Positions 6,430 to 49,826 of a stretch of DNA of 64,000 nt are shown piece after piece; positions within the stretch are counted from its first letter, which is position 1; each line of letters begins with the position of its first letter. The DNA comes from a virus (taxonomy: Duplodnaviria > Heunggongvirae > Uroviricota > Caudoviricetes). The DNA lies in the IMG/VR virus record IMGVR_UViG_3300031413_000570, one strand, 5' to 3'. The notes below the pieces were generated by a model that searched no databases, was not told the DNA's origin, and was given only the letters and a program-made list of their open reading frames with translations. A program made the translations under genes and the position numbers.

Positions 6430-7166
6430 CGTACTTTCCTGTACATAATGTCTGTTCTAATAATTGTTTTTGTGCCAGTTCCGGTGACCTTTTCAGCGTC
6501 ATGCAGGAGGCGATGGTCGAAGACTACAGCTGTTCCGTCTTCAGGAGCGAAGCGAAGTCTAACTTCATCTTCGTCAGCGGCACGGTATTCATCACTAAGT
6601 TCACGCTGAGCGACAGGAAGATGAGCCTGAGGGTCGTGAAGATAACGAGTTGCTCCTCCATGAAGTTCACCTGGGTGTTCCAGATACACGACAAGGCTTT
6701 GAAGTGTGCGGACATCTTCTGATTCGACATACGGAGCATCGTAATGAACTACCAGCCAGCCTCCTTCTTCGTATTTGATGAATCGAAGAAGAGGTGACAC
6801 ACCGATGGGTTCCCATAGTTCATGACCGTCGAAGTCGGTGTTGTCTGCATCTGTGAATGTGCGGACAGTAGGGAAACCGTGCTTGATTCTGTTCCACAGA
6901 ACGTCAGCATACTCAGGAGTGTAATTGGAAGCCCGGTAGGAACCAATAGGGTCGCCTTCTTTCCAGTTTCCTGACATTCCTGTCACTGACACAGGCTGCC
7001 AGTTGGATTCTTCCAACGCTGCCATGATGCTAACTTTTTCCTGTTCAGGAATGAGTTCAGGAATCACTACAGCTGTACGGTCAAGTTCAGGGAATGGTCT
7101 CACTTTAACTGCATGAGCCACAGCAGGGATTTCAAAGTTAACTTGGTTTACGAATTTAGTTGCCAT
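6426..7166 (-). CDS. 2OG-Fe(II) oxygenase superfamily protein
   Basis: Candidate HxD...H iron triad (VVHYDAPY ... FDHRLLHD), typical of prolyl-4-hydroxylase-like dioxygenases. 4-nt overlap with the NMNAT gene and 11-nt overlap with the upstream PP-loop gene. Confidence 0.6.
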   Translation of the reverse strand: MATKFVNQVNFEIPAVAHAVKVRPFPELDRTAVVIPELIPEQEKVSIMAALEESNWQPVSVTGMSGNWKEGDPIGSYRASNYTPEYADVLWNRIKHGFPTVRTFTDADNTDFDGHELWEPIGVSPLLRFIKYEEGGWLVVHYDAPYVESEDVRTLQSLVVYLEHPGELHGGATRYLHDPQAHLPVAQRELSDEYRAADEDEVRLRFAPEDGTAVVFDHRLLHDAEKVTGTGTKTIIRTDIMYRKVR

Positions 7167-8121
7167 TCTGGGGCCTCCAAGGCTGGTTGTTCCATCCGTT
7201 TGGGATTGTTGCGTTCATAATGTCCAGGTGGATGGATGGGGTTCCGTAGGTGTATTTATGTGCGTTGTAGTCATGTAGTTTTTGCAGGTTTTTGGCTCCT
7301 GTGACAAAGTGGGCATCTCGAAGAAGCTTCAACGGAACGCTACGTGCCTGCAGCCACAAATGGAACAGCTCTACGAAGTCATAAGAAGCTCCGAAAACTG
7401 TTTCATCTTCACGGCCGTCATACATGTCTCCTGTAGGAGTGGCTTTCATGACGCTTTCAGGAACTTCGAGCAAAGCTGCAACTTTGTACACTTCTGACTT
7501 GTACAAATCAGAGATTACTTGCAGGTCAACCATACCATCTGAAGCTTTTCCTACATAACCAAGGTATCCACCTTCGGAAAGGTTTGTTGTGCCTACCACT
7601 AAGGCAGGGTAGCCGGCGTCAGTCAGGATTGAACAGGTATTGTACAGGACTGGGGTTCTGGTGTAAGCCACCAGCTGTCCTTTAGCCCAGTCTGTTGATT
7701 TGATATCCAGGATGTCTTCCAATTCAGAAGTAATCACTTGGGAAAGAGATGTGAGCTTAGTGAAAATAGCTGGCTTCAGTCCCAGGTCCTGGCACAGGTC
7801 GGTAGCCTGCTGGACTGCACCGTCTTGGTTAGTTGCACCTTCGTAAGAAAGTGCAGGAAGTAGAAGAGGGACAATCTTCTGAATTGGACTGTTGTCCTGC
7901 TGGGATGCTTTGACGAGAAGTGAAAGGGCTACAGCTGAGTCAATACCACCAGAAACGCCTACTACAGCCCCTAAGAGCTTGTTCTGAGCGAAGTACTGGT
8001 TGATGAGGACAACCTTACGCTCAATCCATTCTGTAGCGTCAAAAGCCCGCACAGCTCTTAGCTGCTCTAAGGTCTGAGCCAGCTCTGCAGTCATGGTTAC
8101 TGTGTCATTGTAGACTTTCAC
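7156..8121 (-). CDS. PP-loop ATP pyrophosphatase, NadE-like paralog (candidate NAD or NMN synthetase)
   Basis: SGGIDSAV PP-loop in the same position as in NadE family proteins. Second NadE-like gene in the window. 321 aa. Confidence 0.6.
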   Translation of the reverse strand: MKVYNDTVTMTAELAQTLEQLRAVRAFDATEWIERKVVLINQYFAQNKLLGAVVGVSGGIDSAVALSLLVKASQQDNSPIQKIVPLLLPALSYEGATNQDGAVQQATDLCQDLGLKPAIFTKLTSLSQVITSELEDILDIKSTDWAKGQLVAYTRTPVLYNTCSILTDAGYPALVVGTTNLSEGGYLGYVGKASDGMVDLQVISDLYKSEVYKVAALLEVPESVMKATPTGDMYDGREDETVFGASYDFVELFHLWLQARSVPLKLLRDAHFVTGAKNLQKLHDYNAHKYTYGTPSIHLDIMNATIPNGWNNQPWRPQNGN

Positions 8122-8888: not shown

Positions 8889-10130
8889 TTACATGTTCCA
8901 CAAGGTGTTCTCGTCCTCAGGCTTCACACGGTCCCAAATTTTATGAGACTGAACTACGCTTCCAACAGCGTTGCCGTTGAACTCAAGGTTCATGACGAAA
9001 GCTTTGTTTTCGGCTGGCACAAGAGGTGAGTCTTTCAAAGTGGTAGCAAAAGTCTTGCGGTCGTAACCAGCAGGAAGAGTTGCCTTGAAAGCGCCATGCT
9101 CATCCGTGATTTGGGCAATTTCTTTGTTATACCCAGCAGTGATTTTAGCCTGACGAGTGGATACAAACTCACTGAACTCTTCAGGCATGTTCTCTTTCCA
9201 ACCTGCCATATCTTCACCCATACGCATTTTACGCCAGATAGTTTTGGAAGTCACGCCAGTACGGTTACGGTGGAGTTCAAGATAATCTGCATGCTTATAC
9301 TTCACACGGGTGTCAGTATCGATGTAATGAACGATGAAACCTTCACGGTTTTCTCTTTCAGGAGAGTGAAGAACAGCATCTAAGGAGGAAAAGTCTTTGT
9401 ACTCTTCAGCTCTTTTCCATTTCCATTCTTTGATGTCACGTAACGGAACTGATTTACCAGTTCGTTTGTTAACAGCACCGATGAGATGCAAGTCATCCTC
9501 ATCGCCATAGTTAACCACAACACGGTTCTCTGGGTAGATAATTTCCCACATGTAAGTCAACTTAGGATTTGGCTTCCAGTTTCCTTCGTAACGGTCATGG
9601 TAGAGCTCTGTAGAACGTTTTGCTTGTTCGGATATGAAACTTCCAGAGGTTGCAATGTTGAATTTGCCGTTCTCATCAACATAACCGATTCCTAAGGAAC
9701 CGTCCAGCTTGTCAGTCACGCTAATTCGACCATGCAATTTATCTCTGGGAACTGATGGTTCGTTGTGGTTGAAGAACTTAGCAAATGGACGAGCGACAAT
9801 CTCGCCTGTCTCCTCGTTGAAAATGACACCACGAGAAGCTAAGGTCACGTCATCCCAGTCAGAAGCGAACTGAGTTGTCCGGGAATACTTGTAAGTCACA
9901 TAAGGATGCTCAGGGTGGCGGCTGCACTCAATGCGACCATCATCGTAAGCTTTCTGGAAAGCTGACAGAGGAGGCAGTTCATTAGCTGGAGCAACAGTCT
10001 CAGCAGCTGTTTCTACTTGCTTGAAAAAAGCGACTTTCTCTGTATTTTCGCGGCCTCTGATCGAACAGTCTTTGGTCCAGCAGTTTGTACCATCGTTGTG
10101 ATAGTACGGAGGTTTTCTTGTATTTGACAT
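8889..10130 (-). CDS. ATP-dependent RNA ligase (nucleotidyltransferase superfamily), paralog 1
   Basis: Motif I KLDGSLG, preceded by SRGVIFNEETGEIVARPFAKFFNHNE. Globally similar to the ORF at 23550..24671. T4 RnlA-like context together with pnk. Confidence 0.65.
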   Translation of the reverse strand: MSNTRKPPYYHNDGTNCWTKDCSIRGRENTEKVAFFKQVETAAETVAPANELPPLSAFQKAYDDGRIECSRHPEHPYVTYKYSRTTQFASDWDDVTLASRGVIFNEETGEIVARPFAKFFNHNEPSVPRDKLHGRISVTDKLDGSLGIGYVDENGKFNIATSGSFISEQAKRSTELYHDRYEGNWKPNPKLTYMWEIIYPENRVVVNYGDEDDLHLIGAVNKRTGKSVPLRDIKEWKWKRAEEYKDFSSLDAVLHSPERENREGFIVHYIDTDTRVKYKHADYLELHRNRTGVTSKTIWRKMRMGEDMAGWKENMPEEFSEFVSTRQAKITAGYNKEIAQITDEHGAFKATLPAGYDRKTFATTLKDSPLVPAENKAFVMNLEFNGNAVGSVVQSHKIWDRVKPEDENTLWNM

Positions 10131-11541: not shown

Positions 11542-12513
11542 ATGTGTTACCCAAAACCTGGTCCCCGTTGTTCAGCTCATGCTGCAGCTACTTTCGCTAA
11601 AGCTCATCAAGCAGTCCTCAGTGCCTTCATGGACAACCGTAAAGACCCAGAGCTTGAGAAGCTGATAGCGGTAAGAAAAAAAGCTGAAGCGGAGTACAAG
11701 CTGACACCAGCTTATCTAAAGTCTCTGGAAAGACAGATCAAAAAGAACCCAACGCAAGAATGGCATGCGGAAGAGTATGAAACACTTTCTCAAGAACGTT
11801 CCCGAAGATTAGCTGCTGTTGCGGATCGCAAAGTCATCACCCACAGAAAAGCGCAGAAGGCTGCTTACACTTCACCAAAGTTTTTCAAAACTGGTGACAC
11901 CCTCGAAGAGATGCATTACAAACATGCTGATTTGTTGAACAGTATGGCAGATTCCCAAAACTGGAGTGCCAAACTGGATGATACTGAAATAGCTACTCTT
12001 CGCTGGTATTCAGAAGATGGTTATGCTGACATCAACGGTCATCTTTCAGCTTCGAAGAACCCGTACGCAAAAAACGTTGCACCTGAAACGTTGGATGCAG
12101 CTGTAACCATTCTGGATGATGCTTTCGCTAAACACGAACCAGCAGAAGAAGGTGTGATGGTTTACCGCCGGCACCATCTATATGATGAAAAAGGTTACCA
12201 TTCAAGTGATGATGCTCAGAATCTTGACAAACATTTCCCTGTTGGTAGCACATACGAACCTAAGTTCTTCATGTCGACAAGTTTGAATCCTCAGGACTTA
12301 CCTTCTAAAGACAACATCAATGTTTCTCTACAGATTCTTACAAAAAGTGGTGCTCCAATCACAGCTATCTCATCGCAAGGTCCAAGAGAGTATGAGTTCA
12401 TCATTCCTCGCGGTGCAAAATTCGAAGTTGTTGCTAATGATGTGAAAGTCAAAAGGGTCAATAAAAAAGGTGAAGCAACTGAACTGACAATTGTGCAGCT
12501 GCGAGAAATTTAA
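11542..12513 (+). CDS. mono-ADP-ribosyltransferase (R-S-ExE class) with N-terminal C-x7-C-x2-H motif
   Basis: Catalytic triad elements VYRRH (Arg), FMSTSLNP (STS) and REYEFIIPRG (ExE). N-terminus MCYPKPGPRCSAHAA. Architecture similar to T4 Alt and toxin ARTs. Confidence 0.75.
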   Translation: MCYPKPGPRCSAHAAATFAKAHQAVLSAFMDNRKDPELEKLIAVRKKAEAEYKLTPAYLKSLERQIKKNPTQEWHAEEYETLSQERSRRLAAVADRKVITHRKAQKAAYTSPKFFKTGDTLEEMHYKHADLLNSMADSQNWSAKLDDTEIATLRWYSEDGYADINGHLSASKNPYAKNVAPETLDAAVTILDDAFAKHEPAEEGVMVYRRHHLYDEKGYHSSDDAQNLDKHFPVGSTYEPKFFMSTSLNPQDLPSKDNINVSLQILTKSGAPITAISSQGPREYEFIIPRGAKFEVVANDVKVKRVNKKGEATELTIVQLREI

Positions 12514-12564: not shown

Positions 12565-13470
12565 TTAGAAGTCTCCGTAGTCAACCTGGAATACAGGAAG
12601 ACCCAGCTCACGACGATAAGCGTCGACAACCTGGTTCCGGTCATCCAAAGCTAACAGGATGTTGAAACGTTCCCGAATATGGGCATCAAAAAGTTCACGC
12701 TTGATGATGTTGTCTTTACGGTAGTCGTTATGAGGTCTCATGTAGATTTCGTCCACAGGAACACCAGCTACTTCCAGAGAAAGCAACGTGTCTGCCTTGC
12801 AGACTTCATCTCGACCAGACATAACAACAACTTTGTAGCCCTGAGCATGCAGAGCTTTCACTGTTTCAACAACAGGCGGGTTAGGCTCGTCGTCAATGAC
12901 TTTGTGCCAGTCAAACGGTCCACGATGTGAACCCATCTTCATGGCCGTACCGTCAACATCCAAAAGGATAGCTTTAGGCAGAGTCTCATCAGGAACATAG
13001 ATTCCTGCTGCAGCTGCTTCGTAGTCAAGTACAGGGAACGGAGGGAACTTACCGCTCTGGATGTAACGCTTGAATGTTGTTTCAATCACCTGTGCAGGAA
13101 CTTTACGCTCACGAGCAGCGTTACGGGCAAGAGCTGTCTCAAGCTCAACAGGGAAGTCCTGATGGACGACAGGAACGTTAGCTTTCTCCGCGATAAGGAG
13201 ATACTCTTTGACGTACTTGGCTTTCAAATTCACATTGTCAACGACAACACTTTTGCGTGCAGCAAGAAGAGCGGTGATGATGGCATGCTCCACTTTGGTA
13301 ACAGCGACTTCAAGCTCCTGAGGAAGCTCGTAGGAGCTGAACTGGCTGAGACGAATGTCATCACGGTTCACACGGGCACGGTTTAACGGGTCCTGGTTCA
13401 CCCAGCGGATGGCTTCTGTAGATTTACCGGAGCCCTGTACTCCCCGGTGAATCCGCATTATCTGTGACAT
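12565..13470 (-). CDS. pnk: polynucleotide 5'-kinase / 3'-phosphatase (T4 Pnk-like)
   Basis: N-terminal P-loop kinase GVQGSGKST. C-terminal HAD phosphatase motif LLDVDGT. ATG start chosen at MSQIM, with AGGAA 5 nt upstream. The track ORF begins at a TTG at 13497. Confidence 0.8.
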   Translation of the reverse strand: MSQIMRIHRGVQGSGKSTEAIRWVNQDPLNRARVNRDDIRLSQFSSYELPQELEVAVTKVEHAIITALLAARKSVVVDNVNLKAKYVKEYLLIAEKANVPVVHQDFPVELETALARNAARERKVPAQVIETTFKRYIQSGKFPPFPVLDYEAAAAGIYVPDETLPKAILLDVDGTAMKMGSHRGPFDWHKVIDDEPNPPVVETVKALHAQGYKVVVMSGRDEVCKADTLLSLEVAGVPVDEIYMRPHNDYRKDNIIKRELFDAHIRERFNILLALDDRNQVVDAYRRELGLPVFQVDYGDF

Positions 13471-13604
13471 TTTGTTTCCTAACTTAAGATACTCCAACTT
13501 ACCATGAAATCCGGCCAGCTGTCAAATACTATGTGCATTAGCTGTTGATGATAGAATTCTTTGACCGCTCATAAAGCTGACAACGATTAAGGAACATTAG
13601 CATC

Positions 13605-19585: not shown

Positions 19586-21478
<1,893 letters not shown>

Positions 21479-23549: not shown

Positions 23550-24671
23550 ATGGTACACATTTACGATATTGCTCCTGCTGAACTTTGGGCAGCTGAGTTC
23601 CAGAACAAACACATCAACCGTCAGGTTCACCCTACGCTTGACTTGGCTATCTTCGACTATTCGCAGGTATGCCAGTTCGACCGAGCCTGGAACGCTGCCA
23701 CATTAGCTTCACGAGGACTTATCGTTGACGGTTCCACTCAGGAGATTGTTTCCCGCCCTCTTGGTAAATTCTTCAACCACGGCGAACCAGATGTCCCTCA
23801 GGATGCGTTGACTGGACCTATCGTGGTCACAGACAAAGCAGATGGTTCTATGGGTGTTTCATATGTCAACCCTGAAACAGGTCGACTGAACATTTCCACA
23901 CGTGGTTCGTTCAGCTCTGAGCAGGCTCTGCATGCTACAGCTCGTTACCAGGAGCTGTACGACGGCAAATGGGAGCCAATTGCTGGTGAGACTTACATCT
24001 GGGAAATCATCTACCCTACAAACCGCATCGTTGTCAACTATGGGGATTTGGATGACCTCATCCTTATTGCCCGAGTGAACACAGCAACAGGCCGCTCTGT
24101 GCCAGCATCACAGGTTGAAGAGTGGACTTGGTTGAAGGTTGAGCAGTTCGAGTACAGCAGCCTCACTGAAGCTTTAGCGGCTCCTGGTCGTGAGAACAAA
24201 GAAGGTGTGGTTGTTCACTTCCTGGATAGTGATGTTCGTGTGAAAGTGAAGCAGGACGACTACATCCAGCTTCACCGTGTCATCACAGGTGCGTCTTCGC
24301 GTCGAATCTGGGAGTTGCTCGTAGCTGACGGTGATTTCACTTCTTGGATTGTTGGTCTCCCCGACGAGTTCGTTGAATATGTAGAAACAACTCGTGATCG
24401 ACTGATTGCAGAGCATGCCGAAGTGCGTTCAACAGTTGAAGAGACTTACAACCGTATCCTCTCTGAGCTTCCTGAAGGGTACACTCAGAAAGACTACGCT
24501 GCAGCTGTGCAGAAAGAAGACAAAAGCATTACTGGTTTGTTGTTCTCCCGTCACAGTGGAGGTCATTTTGAAGCTAAGTCTGAGAAGAAAATCTCTGACA
24601 TCATCTGGAAAATGATTCAGCCTGAGTTCGAGAAGCCTTTCTGGAACTTGAACGGAAAAACTGCTGACTAA
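23550..24671 (+). CDS. ATP-dependent RNA ligase, paralog 2
   Basis: Motif I KADGSMG. SRGLIVDGSTQEIVSRPLGKFFNHGE aligns with the ORF at 8889..10130. Further shared blocks: YIWEIIYPTNRIVVNYGD and NKEGVVVH. Confidence 0.65.
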   Translation: MVHIYDIAPAELWAAEFQNKHINRQVHPTLDLAIFDYSQVCQFDRAWNAATLASRGLIVDGSTQEIVSRPLGKFFNHGEPDVPQDALTGPIVVTDKADGSMGVSYVNPETGRLNISTRGSFSSEQALHATARYQELYDGKWEPIAGETYIWEIIYPTNRIVVNYGDLDDLILIARVNTATGRSVPASQVEEWTWLKVEQFEYSSLTEALAAPGRENKEGVVVHFLDSDVRVKVKQDDYIQLHRVITGASSRRIWELLVADGDFTSWIVGLPDEFVEYVETTRDRLIAEHAEVRSTVEETYNRILSELPEGYTQKDYAAAVQKEDKSITGLLFSRHSGGHFEAKSEKKISDIIWKMIQPEFEKPFWNLNGKTAD

Positions 24672-40840: not shown

Positions 40841-41035
40841 TCAGTCTTCGAGCATTTTTTCCAACGCAAATGACAGGAACACAGCAATTTCGTTAATATC
40901 ATCGTTCATATTGTGTGAAGTCACTGTCACTTCCACTTTACCGTCAACTTCACGGAACCCTAAAGCAACTTTCTTCATTTCGCCTTCTTTGAAAGGAGGT
41001 AGTTGCATGGGAGCAAGGTCATTCGTAGTCATGGT
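40841..41035 (-). CDS. hypothetical small protein (start uncertain)
   Basis: The track ORF 40841..41119 overlaps the upstream gene by 85 nt. Internal start MTTNDLAP chosen. Weak call. Confidence 0.3.
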   Translation of the reverse strand, partial: TMTTNDLAPMQLPPFKEGEMKKVALGFREVDGKVEVTVTSHNMNDDINEIAVFLSFALEKMLED

Positions 41036-42339
41036 TACGATATCGGCTGTAACGCCTTCAGGTTTGTTTTTCGGAAAGCAGATGGCGTGTACACAAGCAA
41101 CACAGTCAGCAGCATCCAATTACCCTCAAGCAGCAGACGGGATTCCGTAAGAGCTTGGATGAACAAGCAACCACCGAGCAGGAACAAACCTAGAGGTAAG
41201 AAGCTGGAGTTTCTTCCTGCGTGCTCCACCAAGCGCCAGGAGCTTCCTAAGATGTACAGAGTCATAGCTGCTAAAAGAATGACACCCACTACGCCCAGTT
41301 GGAACCAGACATCCAGATATGCATTATGAGCATGAGCTACAGGCACTCCACCTAATGTGAGTATTCCGTTGAAAGGCTCCTTCCAGACAGGCCAGTAACT
41401 AACCCAACCCCAACCTTCAGGCTTCTGCAAAGCAAGGTCAGCAACTCGTTTCCAGATTTCAGTGCGGTTAGTGAGGTTAGGGTCACGGTCAAAAACACCG
41501 AACAATTTGTCGTAGTTTTTCAACGCAGCAACACCAAGAACAATGCAGAGTCCAACAAAAGACCATGAGGTTATCCGTCTGAACTTTTCTGGGGTGAAAC
41601 GTATAAGCATCGCACCAACAACAATGATGGCAACAGCCAGCAAAGCCAAAGAGATGGTAGCTGAAACTGTCAGAAAATGTGTTCCTAACCCTACAGCTAT
41701 CCAGCTAAGACTCACCCATTTGTTTGTGAGCTTCTCCAACAAAGTCACCACTGAAACAACGATAAGGAGCAATGCGACAAAGCCCAACAAGTTTCTGTTG
41801 CCCATGAAACCTTGAATTGGACCACCTGTGAACAGGTTGTTCTCTGACCAGTTCAACACACCAGAATTTTTCTCAATATCAGTCAAGCCCACGAATTCCA
41901 TAAACACTGGCAGAACAGGTCTCCTGAACAAAGTGGCAACAACTGTTTCGAACATCAAACTGCCGACCACACAGATTTGTAGTCCGTAACCTAAGAGAAC
42001 TATCAGTTTTTTCCATTTGTAAGCAGAGGCAACTAAAAGTCCTATGAGGCTGGTTGCTGCCAGGATGATACTGGCTATGAATGTTTCCAAACGGTAAGTG
42101 GACCAAATCGTGGACAGAGCTGCTAAAGCCACAAAAGTACCCAACAAAAATGGGGTTCGGCGTTTACTCCAGGTACCCCAAAAAAGCCAGACAGCTACAC
42201 TGACGGTCACCAGGCTAAGAGTTCCGTAGCCGATGAGACCGATCAGGTTTCTCAGCCCTTGACCAGCGAAGAGGAGTACAAAAATCCAGACAACGAAACT
42301 GTCTTGAAATTTCTGGGAGTGTCGTACTGTTGAAATCAA
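41035..42339 (-). CDS. O-antigen ligase/polymerase-like (Wzy_C/WaaL family) integral membrane protein
   Basis: About 12 transmembrane helices. Periplasmic loop with HAHNAYLDVWFQLG is typical of the O-antigen ligase family. Confidence 0.55.
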   Translation of the reverse strand: MISTVRHSQKFQDSFVVWIFVLLFAGQGLRNLIGLIGYGTLSLVTVSVAVWLFWGTWSKRRTPFLLGTFVALAALSTIWSTYRLETFIASIILAATSLIGLLVASAYKWKKLIVLLGYGLQICVVGSLMFETVVATLFRRPVLPVFMEFVGLTDIEKNSGVLNWSENNLFTGGPIQGFMGNRNLLGFVALLLIVVSVVTLLEKLTNKWVSLSWIAVGLGTHFLTVSATISLALLAVAIIVVGAMLIRFTPEKFRRITSWSFVGLCIVLGVAALKNYDKLFGVFDRDPNLTNRTEIWKRVADLALQKPEGWGWVSYWPVWKEPFNGILTLGGVPVAHAHNAYLDVWFQLGVVGVILLAAMTLYILGSSWRLVEHAGRNSSFLPLGLFLLGGCLFIQALTESRLLLEGNWMLLTVLLVYTPSAFRKTNLKALQPIS

Positions 42340-42458
42340 TGAAAACCTTAATTTGTTGTGTTACACTGTAGCTATTCTACAGTTTTTCTGATTTAGCCCA
42401 CTTTGCAGCTGTTTCTAATATCAGCACGGCAGACATATAGAATGATCCAGTACCCAGA

Positions 42459-43073
42459 ATGGTTACTGTAATGATAGAAAGAATTTTGATGGACGACGAC
42501 ATTACCCCCTCCTCTGAGGTTGTAACTCGTTCTAAGAAAAAACGCAAAATTGGTTTCCTTGACACGATCATCTTTGGTCTGGCAGCAGGAATCATTCTGA
42601 ATCTATTCTTCGTGGACAGCTATGTTGTCCCTTCTTCCTCCATGACGAACACTTTGCAGGTCAAAGATTACATGGTGTCTGTTCCTGCATTGGACAACAG
42701 ACAAGCACCTGACCGTGGCACTGTTGTCGTTTTCAACCCTCCAGCATCTTGGGGTGAACCTGCTGGAACGGTGTTCGTGAAACGCGTAATAGCTGTTGGT
42801 GGCGATACCATCTCCTGTTGCTCAGATGATGGCAAACTTCTCCTCAATGGTGAGGAACTAAATGAGGATTACATCAAAGATGGCGTGAACGATGTCAACA
42901 AAGAATTCACCTACACTGTCCCAGAAGGGCAAGTGTTTGTCCTGGGTGACAACCGGTTGAACTCAGCTGACTCCAGGTACCACCCTAATGACCCTTTCGT
43001 GCCAGTGGAAAGCATCCTGGGTCAGCCTAAGTTCGTTATGTGGCCGTTGAATCGTATTCACGCCATCAACTGA
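42459..43073 (+). CDS. lepB: signal peptidase I (LepB/SipS type)
   Basis: Box B VPSSSMTNTL (catalytic Ser), box D VKRVIAVGGD (catalytic Lys), box E VLGDNRLNSADSRY, and an N-terminal transmembrane anchor. Confidence 0.8.
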   Translation: MVTVMIERILMDDDITPSSEVVTRSKKKRKIGFLDTIIFGLAAGIILNLFFVDSYVVPSSSMTNTLQVKDYMVSVPALDNRQAPDRGTVVVFNPPASWGEPAGTVFVKRVIAVGGDTISCCSDDGKLLLNGEELNEDYIKDGVNDVNKEFTYTVPEGQVFVLGDNRLNSADSRYHPNDPFVPVESILGQPKFVMWPLNRIHAIN

Positions 43074-45791
43074 TTACAGGCTTTTCAGGAACTGAACAAT
43101 AGGTTCAGCAACAACTCGTCCCAGTTCGACAGGAACAGCATTACCTATTTGACGGTACTGTTTCTCCAGGACTGTGTTGGTTGTTCCACGAGAGGTTGTC
43201 ACAAAATCATACCAGTCAGGGAATGTCTGGATTCGTGCAGCTTCTCTTACAGTGAATCTACGGTCTGCAGCGTCTAAGCTCCACAGGTCTTGCTCCAGCT
43301 TCTCCTGAGGCACTCCATCAGGATGCAAAGGCAGGTGTCGCCCTGTTGCTAAGATAGTCTTTGACGGAACATCCCAGTCAAGTTTGAACCTTCTGGAACG
43401 GTAACGTGAAGAGAAGTCTCCTTCATAGTGTTCATCGTTCAGGTCCCTCAAGTCGTAGAAAGCATCTCTTTGAGTTTTGTACGGAAGCAAGCCTTCACCA
43501 TGAGTGGCAGCAGGGTGCTGGTATTCAAATTCAATGTCGTTTCGCACACCAACAATAATCAGTCGCTCTCTCATCTGAGGCACACCATGCTGGATAGCTT
43601 TCATCAGCTTGTAGTAGATGGTGTAACCTGCTGCTGCAAAATCTTCAACTATCTGATTGAAGGCTTCACCTTGACCATGAGTAAGCAAGCCCTTGACGTT
43701 TTCTGCTACGAAAATTTTTGGCTGAGCGTCAACAACAGCTCGCACGAAATGCAGGTACAGGAAGTTGCGAGGGTCATCCAGCATACGAAGACCTGCTGCT
43801 GAGAATCCAGGGCAGTTGTGAACTACGAATCCATCTGCTACGAATGATTCATCCTCGGCTACAGTAATATCGTAAACAGGAAGTACTCCCATTTCGTTTC
43901 TCACCTGTAAACGCTCCACAGGAACCCATACGTAACTGTCATCATGATGAGCTACGGTAGTGTCAGTTACAGTCACAATCCAGGAACTGTATTTTGGTGA
44001 AGACACAATAACATCCTGTGCAGGGTTCAAGCTACGAAGGATTCGAGCCACGCCAACAGCTAAGTTCTTGCTGTGTACTTCCTGGTCAGAGTTGTGGAAT
44101 AGGAAACCTTCAAGGAAAGCTTTCTGCCAAGCTCGCGGTTTCTGGTGAACTTCTTCAGGAATGACTTTGTTCCATTTTGTGGTTCCGAACAGTTTCATCA
44201 TCTTGTTCAGCTGTTCACTGTGCACAATGACGTTTTTACCTTCTTTTGAACAGACAGCATCAATTTCAGCCAACAATGCCAGGAACTCTTCATCATTGTA
44301 AGGAGTAAGGTAGCTTGGCTTGTGTTCATCGTTCAAAGTTTTTGTACCGCACTGAGCGAAAACGCCGGCTAAGTAAGCAAACTTGGCTTCTTTTTCGGTT
44401 ACTTCATCTGTACTAAATGTGCTGATTGGGTGAGACACAAACCAACCTGGCTGAATGTTCTCAGCGTGGACCCATTTGGGTTCAGAGTCAACAGTTTCTT
44501 TCACCCAGTAAGGATGGTTTACAGTTGAGACAAGAGGAAGAGAACCGTAAGCGTGCAAGGTAGCTGATTTGTTGACGTTACGGGTCATGGTGTCGGTTAC
44601 TTCACGGTAGCGACCTTCATGGGTGAGAACAAAATCACCTTTCTCGATGTCTTCAATGTTTTTGTAGCCTGTTTTTGTTGCTACGCCTGTTCCTTTAGGG
44701 AAGCAGGGGAATCCACCTAACAGAAGGTCTGCGTCAGGGAAGCTGTTGATTTTTTTGATGTCTCGTTCGTCAACGAACGTTTCAGGGAAGTTGAGACGGT
44801 AAGAAGCTACTGCATCTTTGAAGTTGTCATTCACGTAGACCGTGTGAATGAGGTTATCTTTACGGAGCTCGTCAAACACTCTTTTGTCTTTGTAAGCTGC
44901 GTCCACTTTCTCTTTACCGTGAACTGCTTCAAGTCCAGCTAACTCGAAACCTAAATCTAATCCACCTGCACCTGCGAACAGGGACAGCACTTTGTACTGA
45001 CCATCAGGTAAGTTCACTTCTGGGTAGACATCCTTTTTATCTGACACTGAAGGTGAATGTTCTGCGATTTTGGCTTTCAGAACGCGGGAAGCTTTTGCAG
45101 GAAGTTCCTGGAGTCTTTCAACTTTTCTCAGGATGTTCTCCACAATTTCGCGTTCGTTGAACTGCACGCCAATCATCATGTCAAATTTGGTGTAGTCATC
45201 CAGTGCAGTTTCTGAGACATGGTTCAACTGCTCTTCAGTGTATTTGATACCATCACGCTTGTTTCGACGCTCTGCGAGAACTTCTTCTGGAATGTCAAGA
45301 CGTAGAGCAACACCTTGATTGTCAACCACCGTGTCCATTTCATTAGGGAAACGTGCATCTGAAACGAAAATGAAGTCTGTTTCTGACTTGTTGACGAAGT
45401 TCAAGAACAAGTCAGTCCAGTACTCAGGACGCTGCTTTCTGCGAATCTCTGTACCAAGGTACTGAAGAGATTCACGGATTTTGACTGTTCGTGAGTAACC
45501 GTTGAGAGTTTCATCTGCAAGCACTTCTGTTCTCAGATTAGTAGCAATCAGGAGAGCATCGTCGTAGTTGATGTCCAGATTACGAGCGATGGAGAAAGAA
45601 AGAGTCAGTTCATCCTGTTCAGGGAAAGCTCGAATCATAGAGATGATTTCGTTGAGTTCCTGCTTCAGGGGTGCAGCGAAGGCTGTGTAGTCGATGGTAA
45701 AACCAAGACGTTTCAGTTCGTTTACAAGCTTGTCAGTCAGGTAATCTTTACCTGACGCAATTTTTCCTGATACGCCGATGAGGGTGGCCAT
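43074..45791 (-). CDS. fusion of a dNMP-kinase-like domain with a DNA (cytosine-5)-methyltransferase interrupted by a LAGLIDADG intein
   Basis: N-terminal GVSGKIASGKD P-loop resembles T4 gp1 dNMP kinase. MTase motifs: I LFAGAGG, IV GGFP[intein]CPGFSAAG, VI ENV, VIII QMRERL, X GNAV. One continuous 905-aa ORF. Confidence 0.75.
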   Translation of the reverse strand: MATLIGVSGKIASGKDYLTDKLVNELKRLGFTIDYTAFAAPLKQELNEIISMIRAFPEQDELTLSFSIARNLDINYDDALLIATNLRTEVLADETLNGYSRTVKIRESLQYLGTEIRRKQRPEYWTDLFLNFVNKSETDFIFVSDARFPNEMDTVVDNQGVALRLDIPEEVLAERRNKRDGIKYTEEQLNHVSETALDDYTKFDMMIGVQFNEREIVENILRKVERLQELPAKASRVLKAKIAEHSPSVSDKKDVYPEVNLPDGQYKVLSLFAGAGGLDLGFELAGLEAVHGKEKVDAAYKDKRVFDELRKDNLIHTVYVNDNFKDAVASYRLNFPETFVDERDIKKINSFPDADLLLGGFPCFPKGTGVATKTGYKNIEDIEKGDFVLTHEGRYREVTDTMTRNVNKSATLHAYGSLPLVSTVNHPYWVKETVDSEPKWVHAENIQPGWFVSHPISTFSTDEVTEKEAKFAYLAGVFAQCGTKTLNDEHKPSYLTPYNDEEFLALLAEIDAVCSKEGKNVIVHSEQLNKMMKLFGTTKWNKVIPEEVHQKPRAWQKAFLEGFLFHNSDQEVHSKNLAVGVARILRSLNPAQDVIVSSPKYSSWIVTVTDTTVAHHDDSYVWVPVERLQVRNEMGVLPVYDITVAEDESFVADGFVVHNCPGFSAAGLRMLDDPRNFLYLHFVRAVVDAQPKIFVAENVKGLLTHGQGEAFNQIVEDFAAAGYTIYYKLMKAIQHGVPQMRERLIIVGVRNDIEFEYQHPAATHGEGLLPYKTQRDAFYDLRDLNDEHYEGDFSSRYRSRRFKLDWDVPSKTILATGRHLPLHPDGVPQEKLEQDLWSLDAADRRFTVREAARIQTFPDWYDFVTTSRGTTNTVLEKQYRQIGNAVPVELGRVVAEPIVQFLKSL
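43815..44705 (-). other. intein (297 aa, with LAGLIDADG homing endonuclease) inserted at the catalytic Cys of the MTase PC motif
   Basis: Begins CFPKGTG. Block B TVNHPYW. LAGLIDADG motifs YLAGVFAQCG and FLEGFLFHNSD. Ends VVHN followed by +1 Cys. Excision restores GGFPCPGFSAAG. Confidence 0.7.
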
Positions 45792-45891: not shown

Positions 45892-45930
45892 ATTTTGTCC
45901 CCCACAAGAGCCTTGTGGGGGACAAAATTA
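45892..45930. terminator. perfect hairpin TTTTGTCCCCCACAAG-AGCC-TTGTGGGGGACAAAA with A/T flanks
   Basis: Between the mazG stop and the MTase gene start. Confidence 0.6.
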
Positions 45931-47708: not shown

Positions 47709-49826
47709 TTGACCATGAAGAACTACCATAAACAGCAATCAGGTAAGAGGCAAGGCGATTGGGTCCGTTGCCCTGCACAGAAGAAATGCACACTGATAAA
47801 CGGAGAACACATGACTGAGTACCAGTATCATCAGCACAAGAATGCTGAGCTGGTTGAGAAGCAGCTCAACAGCACGAACGATGTTGAGAGCCTGCTTGCT
47901 ATGTCTATCTTGAAGGAAGCTATGGAGCGTACCTACACTCCTGTAAGCTCCTACGGTCATCAGAAGGCTCTGAAGACTGTTGAAGAGGACAAAGCTAAAG
48001 CTGCCCGCCTGATTGAATCAGGGGATGAGGAAGCTATGGAAAGCTTCATTCAGGACCGTATCAACTCTGAGGACTTCACTGCCCTTCTTGAGAAGCGTGA
48101 TGCAAACATGCAGCTTCTTGAGGAGACTAAAGCTGACCGTGACCTTCTGAAGAAGAAGTGGGAAGAAGACCCTGCGTTCCTGTACGAAGATGTTCGTCAG
48201 AAGGAACTTGCGATGATTGACATCAACGAGGAAGTCAGTCTCCTCCGCCGTCAGATTAACGAGTACAAAGACGTTGCAGCACCTGTTGTGGCTCATCTTG
48301 CTGACCTTGAAGAGAACCGTCTTCGTGAAGCCGGCGAATGGCGTGAGTATGACAAAGAGACTCTGAATGAACTCACTAAGACTGCTGAGTTCGAGTCAGG
48401 TACTCGTGAGTGGCTTGAGCAGCGTCAGAAGGGTATTGGTGGTTCAGATGTTGGAGCCATCAAGCGAGTCAAGGGTGCTTACAACAGCTACGAAGAAATC
48501 ATGCAGTCCAAGCTTGAACCCATCACTGATGAGCAGGTTGCTGAGCAGGCACTGAATAACGAAGAGTATGCTGGTGCTGCTGGACGTGGTAACGCTTGGG
48601 AGAAGCGAATCTTCCTTCAGGTTGTACAGAACAACCCTGATGACAACATTACGTTCTGCAAGTCTTCCTGGAAACACAACGAGAACGAGTTCCAGTTCGC
48701 TAACTTTGACGGTCTGATGGCTGACAAAGATGGTAACCCTGACGGTATTGTTGAAATCAAGACTGCTTCTGTTGCTGGTAAATGGGGTAACCCTGAAGAT
48801 GGCTTGGATGGTGTCCCTGACACGTACCGAGCTCAGACTCTTTGGTATGCCCAGGCTGCTGGTTTCAAGCGTGGTATGGTTGCGGTTGTCATTGATGACC
48901 GTGAATACCGTGAATACCACTTCGCCATGACTCCTGAGCTTGAGCAGGAAGCTGCTGGCAACCTTGAAGCTGTGAAGAAGTTCAACACCGAACTTGCTTC
49001 CCGCAAGGCTGGTACTTGGGAAGGACGTAACCGTGTTCGTGGTTTCTCCCAGAATGCTCTGAACTCCAGCTTGAGCAACAAAGAGAAGCAGGAAATCTTC
49101 ACTGAAGTTGCAACAATGCGTGGTGTTGACTCCAAGGTTGTTGAGCAGGAATTTGCTGGCAACTTCGATGATGAGAACCGCAAGGACCGAACTTATGTTG
49201 CGGCTCAGCTTCGTAACCTTTACGTCACTGCAGCTAAGCAGGAAACTCTGCCTGACTATGTGAGTGTTGATTTGGAAACAGCCGGCTCTCAGCCTACTTC
49301 AGGTAGCATCATTGAATACGGTGCATCTGTTCGTACCAACTACCGTAACTCTACTCTGACTCGTAATGACACAGAAAAAGCTAAGACAAGCAAACTTTAC
49401 GGTCTTTCAAAGAAGGCTCTCCTGACTCGCAGCACAGGTAACAGTGAGGTTCATGGTATTACTGAAACTCAGATTGCGAAGAAGCGTCAGTTCTTGAACC
49501 CTGCTGAAGGTACTGCTGTTCTTGACCAGTTGACAAGTGTGGGTATCATGATGGCTCACAACAAGACCTTTGAACAGCGTTGGATGTCCACTCATGTTCC
49601 TGGTTTTGCTGATGCTGTGAAGCATAAGAAAATCAAGATTCTTGACACTCTGAAGCTTTCTCGTCGTCTTTTGACTGATGTTCCGAACGACAAGCTCTCT
49701 TCATTCACTGCCCGCTACAACGTTCCTTACCTTGGCGCTCACCGTGCTTATAATGACGCTGAAATGACAGGATATGCTTACGAGCGTATGCTTCGTGAAC
49801 TGCGTACAGGTCGTCGTGAACTGTAA
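47709..49826 (+). CDS. multidomain exonuclease: YqaJ/lambda-exonuclease-like PD-(D/E)xK domain fused to a DnaQ-like DEDDh 3'-5' exonuclease
   Basis: YqaJ motif QRQKGIGGSDVGAI plus FDGLMADKDGNPDGIVEIKTAS. DnaQ Exo I VSVDLETAG, Exo II MMAHNKTFEQRW and Exo III HRAYNDAEMT. N-terminal Cys/His cluster WVRCPAQKKC. Confidence 0.6.
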   Translation: MTMKNYHKQQSGKRQGDWVRCPAQKKCTLINGEHMTEYQYHQHKNAELVEKQLNSTNDVESLLAMSILKEAMERTYTPVSSYGHQKALKTVEEDKAKAARLIESGDEEAMESFIQDRINSEDFTALLEKRDANMQLLEETKADRDLLKKKWEEDPAFLYEDVRQKELAMIDINEEVSLLRRQINEYKDVAAPVVAHLADLEENRLREAGEWREYDKETLNELTKTAEFESGTREWLEQRQKGIGGSDVGAIKRVKGAYNSYEEIMQSKLEPITDEQVAEQALNNEEYAGAAGRGNAWEKRIFLQVVQNNPDDNITFCKSSWKHNENEFQFANFDGLMADKDGNPDGIVEIKTASVAGKWGNPEDGLDGVPDTYRAQTLWYAQAAGFKRGMVAVVIDDREYREYHFAMTPELEQEAAGNLEAVKKFNTELASRKAGTWEGRNRVRGFSQNALNSSLSNKEKQEIFTEVATMRGVDSKVVEQEFAGNFDDENRKDRTYVAAQLRNLYVTAAKQETLPDYVSVDLETAGSQPTSGSIIEYGASVRTNYRNSTLTRNDTEKAKTSKLYGLSKKALLTRSTGNSEVHGITETQIAKKRQFLNPAEGTAVLDQLTSVGIMMAHNKTFEQRWMSTHVPGFADAVKHKKIKILDTLKLSRRLLTDVPNDKLSSFTARYNVPYLGAHRAYNDAEMTGYAYERMLRELRTGRREL

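What the first reader, a model, noticed from the sequence alone, without database searches (positions are those of the whole stretch)
43074..45791. LAGLIDADG intein inserted exactly at the catalytic Cys of a C5-cytosine MTase that is itself fused to a dNMP-kinase-like domain
Within motif IV the sequence reads GGFP-[CFPKGTG ... VVHN]-CPGFSAAG. The 297-aa insertion (nt 43815..44705) has intein blocks A, B (TVNHPYW) and G (VHN, then +1 Cys) and two LAGLIDADG-like motifs. The +1 Cys is the methyltransferase catalytic nucleophile, so splicing is needed for activity. The N-terminal 265 aa (GVSGKIASGKD) resemble T4 dNMP kinase, an unusual kinase-MTase fusion.
Basis: partly seen in the sequence, partly recalled or inferred. 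Interest (0 to 1): 0.65.

Follow-up and report, generated by a model that had tools for sequence, protein, structure and literature searches.

The report
Intein splitting a kinase-fused cytosine methyltransferase
A giant-phage gene for a nucleotide-kinase/DNA-methylase fusion is interrupted at the methylase's catalytic cysteine by a self-splicing intein, an ordinary kind of element, but one whose nuclease-like domain is strongly conserved and which survives in related phages after the methylase has decayed.

Summary

The N-terminal 228 aa are a T4-dNMP-kinase/phosphomevalonate-kinase-type P-loop kinase. The fusion is real: four independent contigs carry one open frame. It is rare: 3 clusters among 1.84 billion representatives.

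Inteins at this site are not new. They occur unannotated in Erwinia and Dickeya jumbo phages and many metagenomic MTases, and C-5 methylases are listed as intein hosts in actinophages.

- Both LAGLIDADG catalytic acids are replaced (C481, N567), yet that domain has dN/dS 0.02-0.04.
- In sister lineages the MTase is deleted or decayed while the intein ORF stays intact.

Splicing and any intein function of its own are inferred, not shown.

The parts
43074..45791 (-). Whole ORF, 905-aa precursor: kinase - linker - MTase N-half - intein - MTase C-half (stop codon at 43074-43076)
   Evidence: An identical protein (P0001) lies on contigs of up to 788,683 bp.
45108..45791 (-). dNMP-kinase-like P-loop kinase domain, aa 1-228 (P-loop GVSGKIASGKD at 45744-45776; SDARFPNEMD at 45333-45362; NHVSE at 45210-45224)
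44997..45107 (-). Linker, aa 229-265, between the kinase and the MTase
   Evidence: Conserved with P0002 (alignment A1). Lower model confidence, pLDDT about 65-83.
44706..44996 (-). C5-MTase N-extein part, aa 266-362: motif I LFAGAGGLDLGF (44946-44981) and the first half of motif IV, GGFP (44706-44717)
   Evidence: Pfam DNA_methylase; alignment with P0002; dN/dS 0.05-0.085.
43815..44705 (-). Class-1 intein, aa 363-659 (297 aa): Cys1 at 44703-44705; block B TVNH at 44514-44525; block F at 43830-43877; block G VVHN at 43815-43826
   Evidence: The empty site is seen in P0002.
43962..44411 (-). LAGLIDADG-fold domain inside the intein (about aa 461-610). Motif 1 is LAGVFAQCG (44346-44372), with Cys481 at the catalytic position. 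Motif 2 is FLEGFLFHN (44091-44117), with Asn567 at the catalytic position.
43077..43814 (-). C5-MTase C-extein, aa 660-905: +1 Cys (the catalytic Cys, 43812-43814) in CPGFS; motif VI ENV (43686-43712); motif VIII QxRxR (43548-43586); motif IX (43215-43262); motif X GNAVP (43131-43145)
   Evidence: Pfam and TIGR00675. Closest PDB entry is M.HaeIII 1DCT, E 1.8e-45 for the homologue P0002. dN/dS 0.004-0.011.

Best explanation
The gene encodes a 905-aa precursor. Its class-1 intein (aa 363-659) most likely excises itself after translation by the standard route: N-S acyl shift at Cys363, trans-thioesterification to Cys660, cyclisation of Asn659, then S-N shift. This would join GGFP to CPGFS and give a 608-aa protein. 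That protein has an N-terminal T4-type dNMP-kinase-like domain and a HaeIII-like DNA C5-cytosine methyltransferase whose catalytic nucleophile is the former +1 Cys. The unspliced precursor cannot methylate, because 297 residues sit in the catalytic loop.

The intein is an old, vertically inherited resident of this lineage of very large phage-like genomes. Its base composition matches the host gene and it co-diverges with the kinase.

Its LAGLIDADG-fold domain has lost both canonical metal-binding acids, so it is probably not a conventional homing nuclease. It is nevertheless kept under strong purifying selection.

Shown here: the anatomy, the empty allele, the folds, the selection pattern and the rarity of the fusion. 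Inferred: splicing, MTase activity and specificity (GGCC is a guess from homologues), the kinase substrate, and loss of nuclease activity.
For: - Exact insertion, with an intein-free allele: P0002 reads GGFPCPGFS and is 609 aa, against 608 aa predicted for the spliced product.
- Splice residues are all present: C1, T-x-x-H, block F, HN and +1 C. NCBIfam intein_Cterm is 5.7e-10.
- All MTase motifs are intact. The extein halves evolve at dN/dS 0.004-0.085 in three intein-bearing variants (WIN, L093, L094). That makes sense only if a working MTase is produced, which requires splicing.
- Kinase domain.
- MTase subfamily: M.HaeIII is the top PDB hit (E 1.8e-45). The nearest homologues are paired or fused with NgoPII-type restriction enzymes.
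- Long residence: intein GC3 is 0.43, against 0.44-0.47 for the exteins. Intein and kinase identities run in parallel between lineages.
- Catalytic acids replaced.
- LAGLIDADG domain dN/dS is 0.018-0.042, p<1e-12 against neutrality.
Against: - No experiment: splicing, methylation and kinase activity are all untested.
- The block F position that is His in some same-site inteins (P0006) is Glu here. Same-site relatives vary at that position.
- The GGCC assignment rests on homologues that are only 45-57% identical. GGCC is about 2-fold depleted in the window, like several other palindromes, so site counts say nothing either way.
- Strong constraint on the LAGLIDADG domain is not what a dead, decaying endonuclease would show. 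The claim that it is 'not a nuclease' rests only on motif residues.
Confidence: 0.85

Rival explanations
1. The intein, or at least its LAGLIDADG-fold domain, has a selected function of its own, independent of the methyltransferase. It could be a domesticated sequence-specific DNA-binding protein or regulator. That would explain why it is conserved and why it survives when the MTase is lost.
For: - dN/dS of the LAGLIDADG domain is 0.018-0.042. This equals the Hint domain and is lower than the kinase (p<1e-12).
- The residue pair 'QC' at the catalytic position of motif 1 is invariant in four lineages whose synonymous sites are saturated.
- In L092 the MTase N-half is a pseudogene: tblastn E 6e-18, at least 4 in-frame stops, 2 frameshifts and a 27-nt deletion in 363 nt. 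The MTase C-half is cut by a GGA-to-TGA change and then deleted. Yet the 314-codon intein ORF has its own ATG, all splice residues and no disruption. About 18 disruptions would be expected at the pseudogene's rate, P about 1e-8.
- In P0037, seen in 3 samples, the kinase is fused directly to an intact intein that ends HN|CS-stop.
Against: - In the P0003 lineage the splice residues are lost and the relic evolves faster (dN/dS 0.08-0.48, against 0-0.10 for its kinase). That looks like decay.
- Only single contigs represent L092 and P0037, so selection within those lineages could not be measured.
- In the window's own lineage, constraint on the endonuclease-like domain could reflect a folding requirement for splicing.
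- No DNA target or partner is known.
Confidence: 0.3
2. The intein still carries an active, selfish homing endonuclease with a non-canonical active site. It persists next to dead MTase genes because it can still cut intact MTase alleles of co-infecting phages and be copied in.
For: - Purifying selection on the endonuclease-like domain.
- An empty-site allele exists in a related phage (P0002).
- A free-standing intein ORF in L092 and a self-excising one in P0037 would both release the same free protein.
- Intein-derived free-standing homing genes have a precedent in yeast HO/WHO elements (PMC7282813, listed).
Against: - Both metal-binding acids are absent. They are replaced by C481 and N567, and the second position is S in the three relatives. 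From general knowledge, every characterised LAGLIDADG nuclease uses Asp or Glu there, and D-to-N mutants are inactive.
- One beta-hairpin of the second half is missing relative to same-site inteins that have canonical motifs.
- There is no sign of horizontal movement. Intein divergence tracks kinase divergence, pS of the intein equals that of its flanks, and GC3 matches.
Confidence: 0.12
3. The insert is a non-splicing relic and the methyltransferase is dead. Only the kinase half of the gene matters.
For: - The MTase is dispensable in this phage group: it is lost in the P0003, P0037 and L092 lineages.
- Most relatives have stand-alone kinases of about 230 aa.
- Orphan, inactive inteins are documented (Arth_1007, PMC3196547).
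Against: - The MTase C-half has the lowest dN/dS of the whole gene (0.004-0.011). The N-half is at 0.05-0.085 in the intein-bearing variants.
- All MTase motifs and all splice residues are intact.
Confidence: 0.04
4. The kinase and the methyltransferase are separate genes, joined only by a sequencing or assembly error.
For: - In L092 the kinase is a separate 237-aa gene.
- Stand-alone kinases are the rule elsewhere.
Against: - One uninterrupted frame is seen in the window and in identical copies from other samples (L004, L005).
- The same is true of the 97-98% variants L093 and L094 and of the 51%-identical P0002 on two contigs.
- The linker is conserved.
- In L092 the separation goes together with MTase pseudogenisation.
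Confidence: 0.01

Closest known systems
Inteins at the motif IV Pro-Cys site of other phage C5-cytosine methyltransferases (for example Erwinia phage Yoloswag gp43 AQT28528 and Dickeya phage AD1 AXG67092, annotated only as methylases; metagenomic P0004-P0008, P0011, P0045, P0056, P0066, P0069, P0080, P0096, P0103, P0107, P0117). C-5 methylase is also listed as an intein host in actinophages (bioRxiv 10.1101/2025.01.02.630785).
   Same: Same insertion point (..P|C...HN|C..). The splicing domain is homologous (CFxxGTxVxTxxGYKNIEDIxxGDxVLTH, TxxHP, VY(D/N)xxVxxDxS, VHN). The nested domain is LAGLIDADG-type.
   Different: Only 23-29% identical. Several of the others (P0004-P0007, P0011) keep canonical xxDG motifs and a Pfam LAGLIDADG_3 hit (P0004 6e-11). 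This one has C and N at the catalytic positions and a shortened second half. Its host protein also carries an N-terminal kinase domain.
LAGLIDADG inteins with solved structures: TliVMA intein (7QSU), PI-PkoII (2CW8), PI-PfuI (1DQ3), PI-SceI (1JVA)
   Different: Sequence identity is 13-22%. The catalytic acids aligned in PI-PkoII (SEG, GDG) correspond here to QCG and HNS. The host protein is different.
Phage N6/N4 DNA-methylase inteins (mycobacteriophage DNMT-1/2, Kelley et al. 2016, PMC5050341; actinophage methylase intein, PMC9957025)
   Same: A phage DNA methyltransferase interrupted by an intein at a conserved site.
   Different: A different MTase superfamily (PF01555) and a different site. 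They are not at a catalytic cysteine.
T4 gp1 deoxynucleoside monophosphate kinase (1DEK) and animal-type phosphomevalonate kinase (3CH4)
   Different: Low identity. It is fused to an MTase, which was not seen near any of 80 IMG/VR kinase homologues. The substrate is unknown.
M.HaeIII / M.NgoPII-type (GGCC) C5-methyltransferases
   Same: Best PDB match (1DCT, E 1.8e-45). All ten-motif landmarks checked are present. The closest homologues sit next to, or are fused to, NgoPII-family restriction enzymes.
   Different: No restriction partner here (an orphan, phage-borne MTase). Motif IV reads PCP rather than PCQ. The specificity is untested.
Orphan or domesticated intein derivatives: the Arthrobacter Arth_1007 intein pseudogene (PMC3196547) and yeast HO/WHO elements (PMC7282813)
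   Same: Relatives of this intein (P0165, P0037, P0003) exist with only 2-17 extein residues, or none, left of the original host gene.
   Different: Arth_1007 lacks essential residues and does not splice. P0165 and P0037 keep all of them. HO keeps an active nuclease, whereas here the catalytic acids are missing.

Membership tests
Class-1 intein | Cys/Ser at position 1, and Cys/Ser/Thr at +1 preceded by His-Asn | tested here: met
   C363; H658-N659; C660. NCBIfam intein_Cterm 5.7e-10.
Class-1 intein | Block B T-x-x-H, and blocks F and G | tested here: met
   TVNH at 423-426; VYDITVAEDESFVADG; VVHN. These are conserved with same-site inteins.
Class-1 intein | Hint fold | tested here: met
Class-1 intein | In-frame insertion at a conserved site, with an intein-free allele of the same gene | tested here: met
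   P0002 reads GGFPCPGFS. 39 of 60 flanking nucleotides are identical.
Class-1 intein | Protein splicing actually occurs | not testable with these tools
   Only indirect evidence: extein dN/dS is 0.004-0.085 in intein-bearing variants.
LAGLIDADG homing endonuclease | Alpha-beta-beta-alpha-beta-beta-alpha double-motif fold | tested here: met
LAGLIDADG homing endonuclease | A conserved acidic residue at the end of each LAGLIDADG helix, acting as metal ligand | tested here: not met
   C481 and N567 occupy these positions. There is no Pfam LAGLIDADG hit at E<=10.
LAGLIDADG homing endonuclease | Site-specific cleavage of the empty allele, and mobility | not testable with these tools
   There is no sign of horizontal transfer: intein and kinase co-diverge and GC3 matches.
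DNA C5-cytosine methyltransferase (PF00145) | Motifs I (FxGxG), IV (PC), VI (ENV), VIII (QxRxR) and X (GNAVP), and a target-recognition region | tested here: met
   All are present once the intein is removed. Pfam 3.4e-59 and TIGR00675 1.1e-52. M.HaeIII 1.8e-45 for the homologue.
DNA C5-cytosine methyltransferase (PF00145) | Methylates C5 of cytosine in DNA at a defined sequence | not testable with these tools
   GGCC is suggested only by the NgoPII-linked homologues. Site counts are uninformative.
T4-type dNMP kinase (PF21448 DNMK / PHROG 139) | Sequence-family membership | tested here: met
   DNMK 32.4 bits against a cut-off of 27.1. PHROG 139 at 3.5e-26. 1DEK is the top PDB profile hit at 2.8e-6.
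T4-type dNMP kinase (PF21448 DNMK / PHROG 139) | P-loop NMP-kinase fold with an intact P-loop | tested here: met
T4-type dNMP kinase (PF21448 DNMK / PHROG 139) | Phosphorylates dNMPs | not testable with these tools
   Phosphomevalonate kinase scores as well as dNMP kinase. The genomic neighbourhood is nucleotide metabolism: RNR, dCMP deaminase, MazG-like, NT5C.

The most novel reading that the evidence does not exclude
In this clade of 0.7-0.9 Mb phage-like genomes, the intein has become a gene in its own right. It would be a Hint + LAGLIDADG-fold protein without the canonical nuclease residues, kept by purifying selection whether or not its host methyltransferase survives. By three differently built routes it ends up next to or fused to the kinase after the MTase is lost: a free-standing ORF beside an MTase pseudogene, a direct kinase-intein fusion with intact splice residues, and a non-splicing fusion. 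This would be an example of intein domestication in a virus.
Probability: 0.3. Interest if true: 0.8.

Novelty: new variant of a known kind. Interest (0 to 1): 0.55.

Why it matters
Taken alone, the element is one more case of an intein sitting on a catalytic residue. Its practical value is as an annotation fix: the same unannotated intein is present in GenBank jumbo-phage 'methylases'.

Two aspects go further. First, the dNMP-kinase/C5-MTase fusion is an almost unique architecture, found in 3 clusters among 1.84 billion representatives. It links a nucleotide-pool enzyme physically to a DNA-modifying enzyme. The relatives show the link is dispensable.

Second, the locus gives a natural series of five states: empty site; intein-bearing MTase; dead MTase with a live intein ORF; kinase-intein fusion; decaying relic. 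The homing-cycle model predicts that a nuclease-dead intein is kept only to rescue its host protein. Here the nuclease-like domain is as constrained as the splicing domain, and the intein outlives the host gene. That makes the old question of whether inteins ever do anything for themselves or their hosts testable with a handful of constructs.

Tried and rejected
- Near-identical DNA search in GenBank phages: no match.
- Single-sequence PDB searches: nothing for the kinase domain, and only weak intein hits (E>=0.02) for the intein. Profiles were needed.
- Literature searches for 'intein + cytosine methyltransferase / PF00145 / Dcm': no paper on this site. The only mention of C-5 methylase as an intein host is one line in the actinophage survey. 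A search for kinase-MTase fusions found nothing relevant.
- dN/dS between the deep lineages (WIN, P0002, P0003, P0037, P0165): synonymous sites are saturated (pS 0.70-0.83), so ratios are unusable. This was rescued by the 97-98% variants found.
- The three copies of the P0037 gene differ at one base only, so they say nothing about selection.
- IMG/VR holds no close relative of the intein. It holds only distant kinase homologues, none with an MTase within 4 kb.
- GGCC and other site counts, compared between MTase-plus and MTase-minus relatives, show no interpretable pattern.
- A scan of the window with a profile of this intein family found no second copy.
- The idea that the source is a small-genome (CPR-type) bacterium, raised by the DnaK, signal peptidase and Wzy genes and the 0.8-Mb contig, was set aside. 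The window also holds T4-type RNA ligases, polynucleotide kinase, Alt-like ADP-ribosyltransferases, PARP, RNR and many ORFans. No capsid or terminase gene was seen in the window, so 'phage' remains an inference.
Full report
**1. What is in the sequence**

The interval 43074..45791 is one open frame of 905 codons on the minus strand. The plus-strand translation is broken by many stops. Indexing the protein gives aa 1-362, then CFPKGTG...FVVHN (aa 363-659, 297 aa, nt 44705..43815), then CPGFSAAG... to aa 905.

Pfam finds a C5 DNA methylase in two pieces around the insert (3.4e-59). It also finds Hint_2 (3.6e-8), Intein_splicing, and DNMK above its curated cut-off. PHROGs gives dNMP kinase at 3.5e-26 over aa 1-228. 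NCBIfam gives dcm at 1.1e-52 and intein C-terminal region at 5.7e-10.

**2. The empty site and the catalytic cysteine**

The identical protein occurs on contigs of up to 788,683 bp. A 51%-identical homologue, P0002 (609 aa, on a 696,453-bp contig), reads ...VVVGGFPCPGFSAAGPRLLDDPRNFLYLHF... with no insert. Removing the intein from the window's protein predicts 608 aa.

At the DNA level, 39 of 60 bases flanking the junction are shared. Gene order around the locus is the same in both: YqaJ/RNase T exonuclease, a 307-aa ORF, a PRA-PH/MazG-like gene, this gene, signal peptidase S26, NT5C.

Only one Cys follows the motif IV Pro in P0002. After splicing, the +1 Cys (C660) is therefore the motif IV cysteine, which is the nucleophile in this enzyme family (established for M.HhaI and M.HaeIII). 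All other MTase landmarks are intact: FAGAGG, ENV, QMRER, RE..IQTFPD, GNAVP.

**3. It is an intein, structurally as well**

I aligned the insert with nine same-site inserts. Blocks A, B (T-x-x-H), F and G are conserved.

- for the inserted domain alone: I-Tsp061I 13.0, I-DmoI 12.1, WhiA 11.5

A profile of the family hits PI-PkoII at 4e-14 and TliVMA at 1e-13.

**4. The endonuclease-like domain is unusual**

Same-site inteins such as P0004-P0007 and P0011 carry canonical motifs (LLGYFVGDG, FINGYMKADG). P0004 gets a Pfam LAGLIDADG_3 hit at 6e-11. The window's central domain gets no Pfam hit even at E<=10.

The metal-binding acid of each motif aligns with PI-PkoII SEG and GDG. In the window these positions are Cys481 (LAGVFAQCG) and Asn567 (FLEGFLFHN). 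One beta-hairpin of the second half is also missing.

From general knowledge of LAGLIDADG enzymes, those acids are essential. A conventional nuclease activity is therefore unlikely, but this is an inference from sequence.

**5. Selection**

A metagenome scan with the intein alignment recovered two close variants, L093 and L094. They are 97-98% identical in protein and have the whole 905-codon frame intact. It also recovered three P0003-like loci, on contigs of 112,300 bp, 878,612 bp and 883,042 bp.

Synonymous divergence among the three close variants is unsaturated (pS 0.14-0.36). Nei-Gojobori dN/dS values are:

| Region | dN/dS |
|---|---|
| Kinase | 0.064-0.089 |
| Linker + MTase N-half | 0.048-0.085 |
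| Intein (whole) | 0.027-0.042 |
| Hint N part | 0.021-0.042 |
| LAGLIDADG-fold domain | 0.018-0.042 |
| Hint C part | 0.030-0.042 |
| MTase C-half | 0.004-0.011 |

The departure from neutrality is p<1e-12 for the LAGLIDADG domain alone.

Two conclusions follow:
- The methyltransferase is functional in intein-bearing genomes, which implies efficient splicing.
- The endonuclease-like domain is not decaying, in spite of its missing catalytic residues.

Intein GC and GC3 equal those of the exteins. Intein identity between deep lineages tracks kinase identity: 55/60, 47/55 and 51/52%. The intein is therefore an old vertical resident, not a recent arrival.

**6. The kinase domain and the fusion**

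The fusion is genuine. One continuous frame is seen in the window, in identical copies from other samples (L004, L005), in L093 and L094, and in P0002 on two contigs.

The fusion is also rare. An exhaustive HMMER scan of 1.84 billion representatives with P0002 found both domains together only in P0001, P0002 and the partial P0017. Kinases of about 230 aa and MTases otherwise occur separately. None of 80 IMG/VR loci with a kinase homologue has a C5 MTase within 4 kb.

**7. The methyltransferase type**

The best PDB match is M.HaeIII (1.8e-45). The nearest homologues are next to an NgoPII-family restriction enzyme (L008) or fused to one (P0019). GGCC specificity is a reasonable guess, no more.

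Site counts do not help. GGCC, CCGG, GCGC and above all GATC are all depleted in the window.

**8. Not a new insertion site**

The same P|C site carries homologous inteins in:
- Erwinia phage Yoloswag gp43 and Dickeya phage AD1 gp048, annotated merely as methylases;
- many other Erwinia jumbo-phage records, whose tblastn matches also span the intein region (sequences not inspected);
- at least fifteen metagenomic MTases, including mini-intein versions.

The literature I could search describes phage methylase inteins in N6/N4 enzymes (PMC5050341, PMC9957025). A 2025 actinophage survey lists C-5 methylase (IPR001525) among intein hosts. I found no description of this site or of the catalytic-Cys relationship.

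**9. What the relatives add**

The locus exists in five states.
1. P0002: kinase-MTase, no intein.
2. The window: kinase-MTase with intein.
3. L092 (P0165):
   - The kinase is a separate 237-aa gene.
   - The MTase N-half is a pseudogene. It is recognisable at E 6e-18 but has at least 4 in-frame stops, two frameshifts and a 27-nt deletion.
   - The MTase C-half is cut by a GGA-to-TGA change after 'CP' and then deleted.
   - The intein is an intact 314-codon ORF with its own ATG and all splice residues.
4. P0037, found in three samples: the kinase is fused directly to an intact intein ending HN|CS-stop, with the signal-peptidase gene 4 nt downstream.
5. P0003 and L095-L097: kinase plus an intein relic that has lost Cys1 (a 3-codon deletion in GFP[CFP]KGT) and the His-Asn. 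The relic evolves faster, dN/dS 0.08-0.48, against 0-0.10 for its kinase.

The junctions differ between states 3, 4 and 5, so the MTase losses look at least partly independent. At the disruption density of the L092 pseudogene, about 18 hits would be expected in the intein ORF. None is seen (P about 1e-8).

This pattern is not predicted if the intein is kept only to rescue its host protein. It suggests either a function of its own or a still-selfish activity. State 5 shows that decay also happens. I could not measure selection inside states 3 and 4. I therefore rate this reading at about 0.3, plus 0.12 for the active-nuclease variant.

**10. Source genome**

The window also encodes:
- two T4-type RNA ligases, a polynucleotide kinase, a NAD synthetase-like protein and a cytidylyltransferase-like protein;
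- Alt-like and other ADP-ribosyltransferases, and a PARP;
- the RNR small subunit and a MazG-like protein;
- a YqaJ/RNase T fusion;
- DnaK, signal peptidase I, a Wzy-like membrane protein and many ORFans.

It has no tRNA genes. A dCMP deaminase and an NT5C nucleotidase are called at this locus in an identical copy (L004). This looks like a very large phage. No virion gene lies in the window, so that remains an inference.

**11. Verdict**

As an intein at a catalytic cysteine it is a new, divergent member of an existing but poorly documented group. The kinase fusion is a feature not seen in its relatives, and so is the conserved endonuclease-like domain without catalytic acids. The behaviour of the intein in sister lineages is the most interesting lead. 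All activities remain to be shown experimentally.

Noticed in passing
L092:4752-6816 (also L009:58-1668; L003:10001-11662; L095-L097:3287-4948): Related genomes have lost the methyltransferase but kept the intein. In L092 it is a free-standing 314-aa ORF beside an MTase-N pseudogene. In L009 the kinase is fused directly to an intact intein ending HN|CS-stop. In L003 and L095-97 it is a kinase-intein relic without splice residues.
   Followed up: partly
whole window; contigs of P0001 (788,683 bp), P0002 (696,453 bp), L096 (878,612 bp), L097 (883,042 bp): The gene content is phage-like: T4-type RNA ligases at 8889-10130 and 23550-24671, polynucleotide kinase at 12565-13497, Alt-like ADP-ribosyltransferase at 11542-12513. 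But the contigs are 0.7-0.88 Mb. From memory, the largest reported phage genome is about 735 kb. No capsid or terminase gene was seen in the window, and completeness and viral nature were not checked.
   Followed up: partly
window 1-64000: There is strong avoidance of short palindromes. GATC occurs 42 times against about 212 expected (Markov), GCGC 19 against 76, GGCC 41 against 79, CCGG 59 against 88. AGCT is twice its zero-order expectation (520 against 246). GATC is also depleted in all relatives checked, and is absent from the 9-kb L092.
   Followed up: partly
window 34389-37889 (-), 11542-12513 (+): There is a cluster of NAD-using enzymes: a PARP catalytic + WGR protein (36561-37889), two ADP-ribosyltransferase exoenzyme-like proteins (34389-35399, 35420-36460), and an Alt-like ART. 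A NAD synthetase-like gene lies at 7156-8121.
   Followed up: no
window 19586-21445 (-): A full-length DnaK/Hsp70 (Pfam 1.4e-231) is encoded in what otherwise looks like a phage genome.
   Followed up: no
window 41035-43073: A Wzy/O-antigen-ligase-like membrane protein (41035-42339, -) and a signal peptidase I (42459-43073, +) flank the gene. The signal peptidase gene's end abuts the MTase stop codon with no spacer. This convergent arrangement is conserved in all relatives.
   Followed up: partly
window 47709-49826 (+): A 705-aa protein combines a YqaJ-type recombination exonuclease domain with an RNase T/DnaQ-type exonuclease domain. It is conserved at the same position in L001, L003, L004 and L092.
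   Followed up: no
window 45897-45923 (-): A perfect GC-rich hairpin (GTCCCCCACAAGG CTCTTGTGGGGGAC) lies between the MazG-like gene and the kinase-MTase gene, about 105 nt upstream of the ATG. It is probably a terminator of the upstream gene.
   Followed up: no
L006:1381-3489 (KY448244 gp43), L007:1387-3516 (MH460463 AD1_048): GenBank jumbo-phage proteins annotated 'putative modification methylase NgoFVII' and 'putative DNA-cytosine methyltransferase' contain an unannotated 350-357-aa intein at the same Pro|Cys site. Their LAGLIDADG motifs are also non-canonical (VSNGT / QSRCAS).
   Followed up: partly
P0017 (415 aa): A third kinase-MTase fusion (69% identical to P0002) runs through motif I and then continues into an ABC-transporter ATPase-like sequence. 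This is probably a chimeric assembly or a rearrangement.
   Followed up: no
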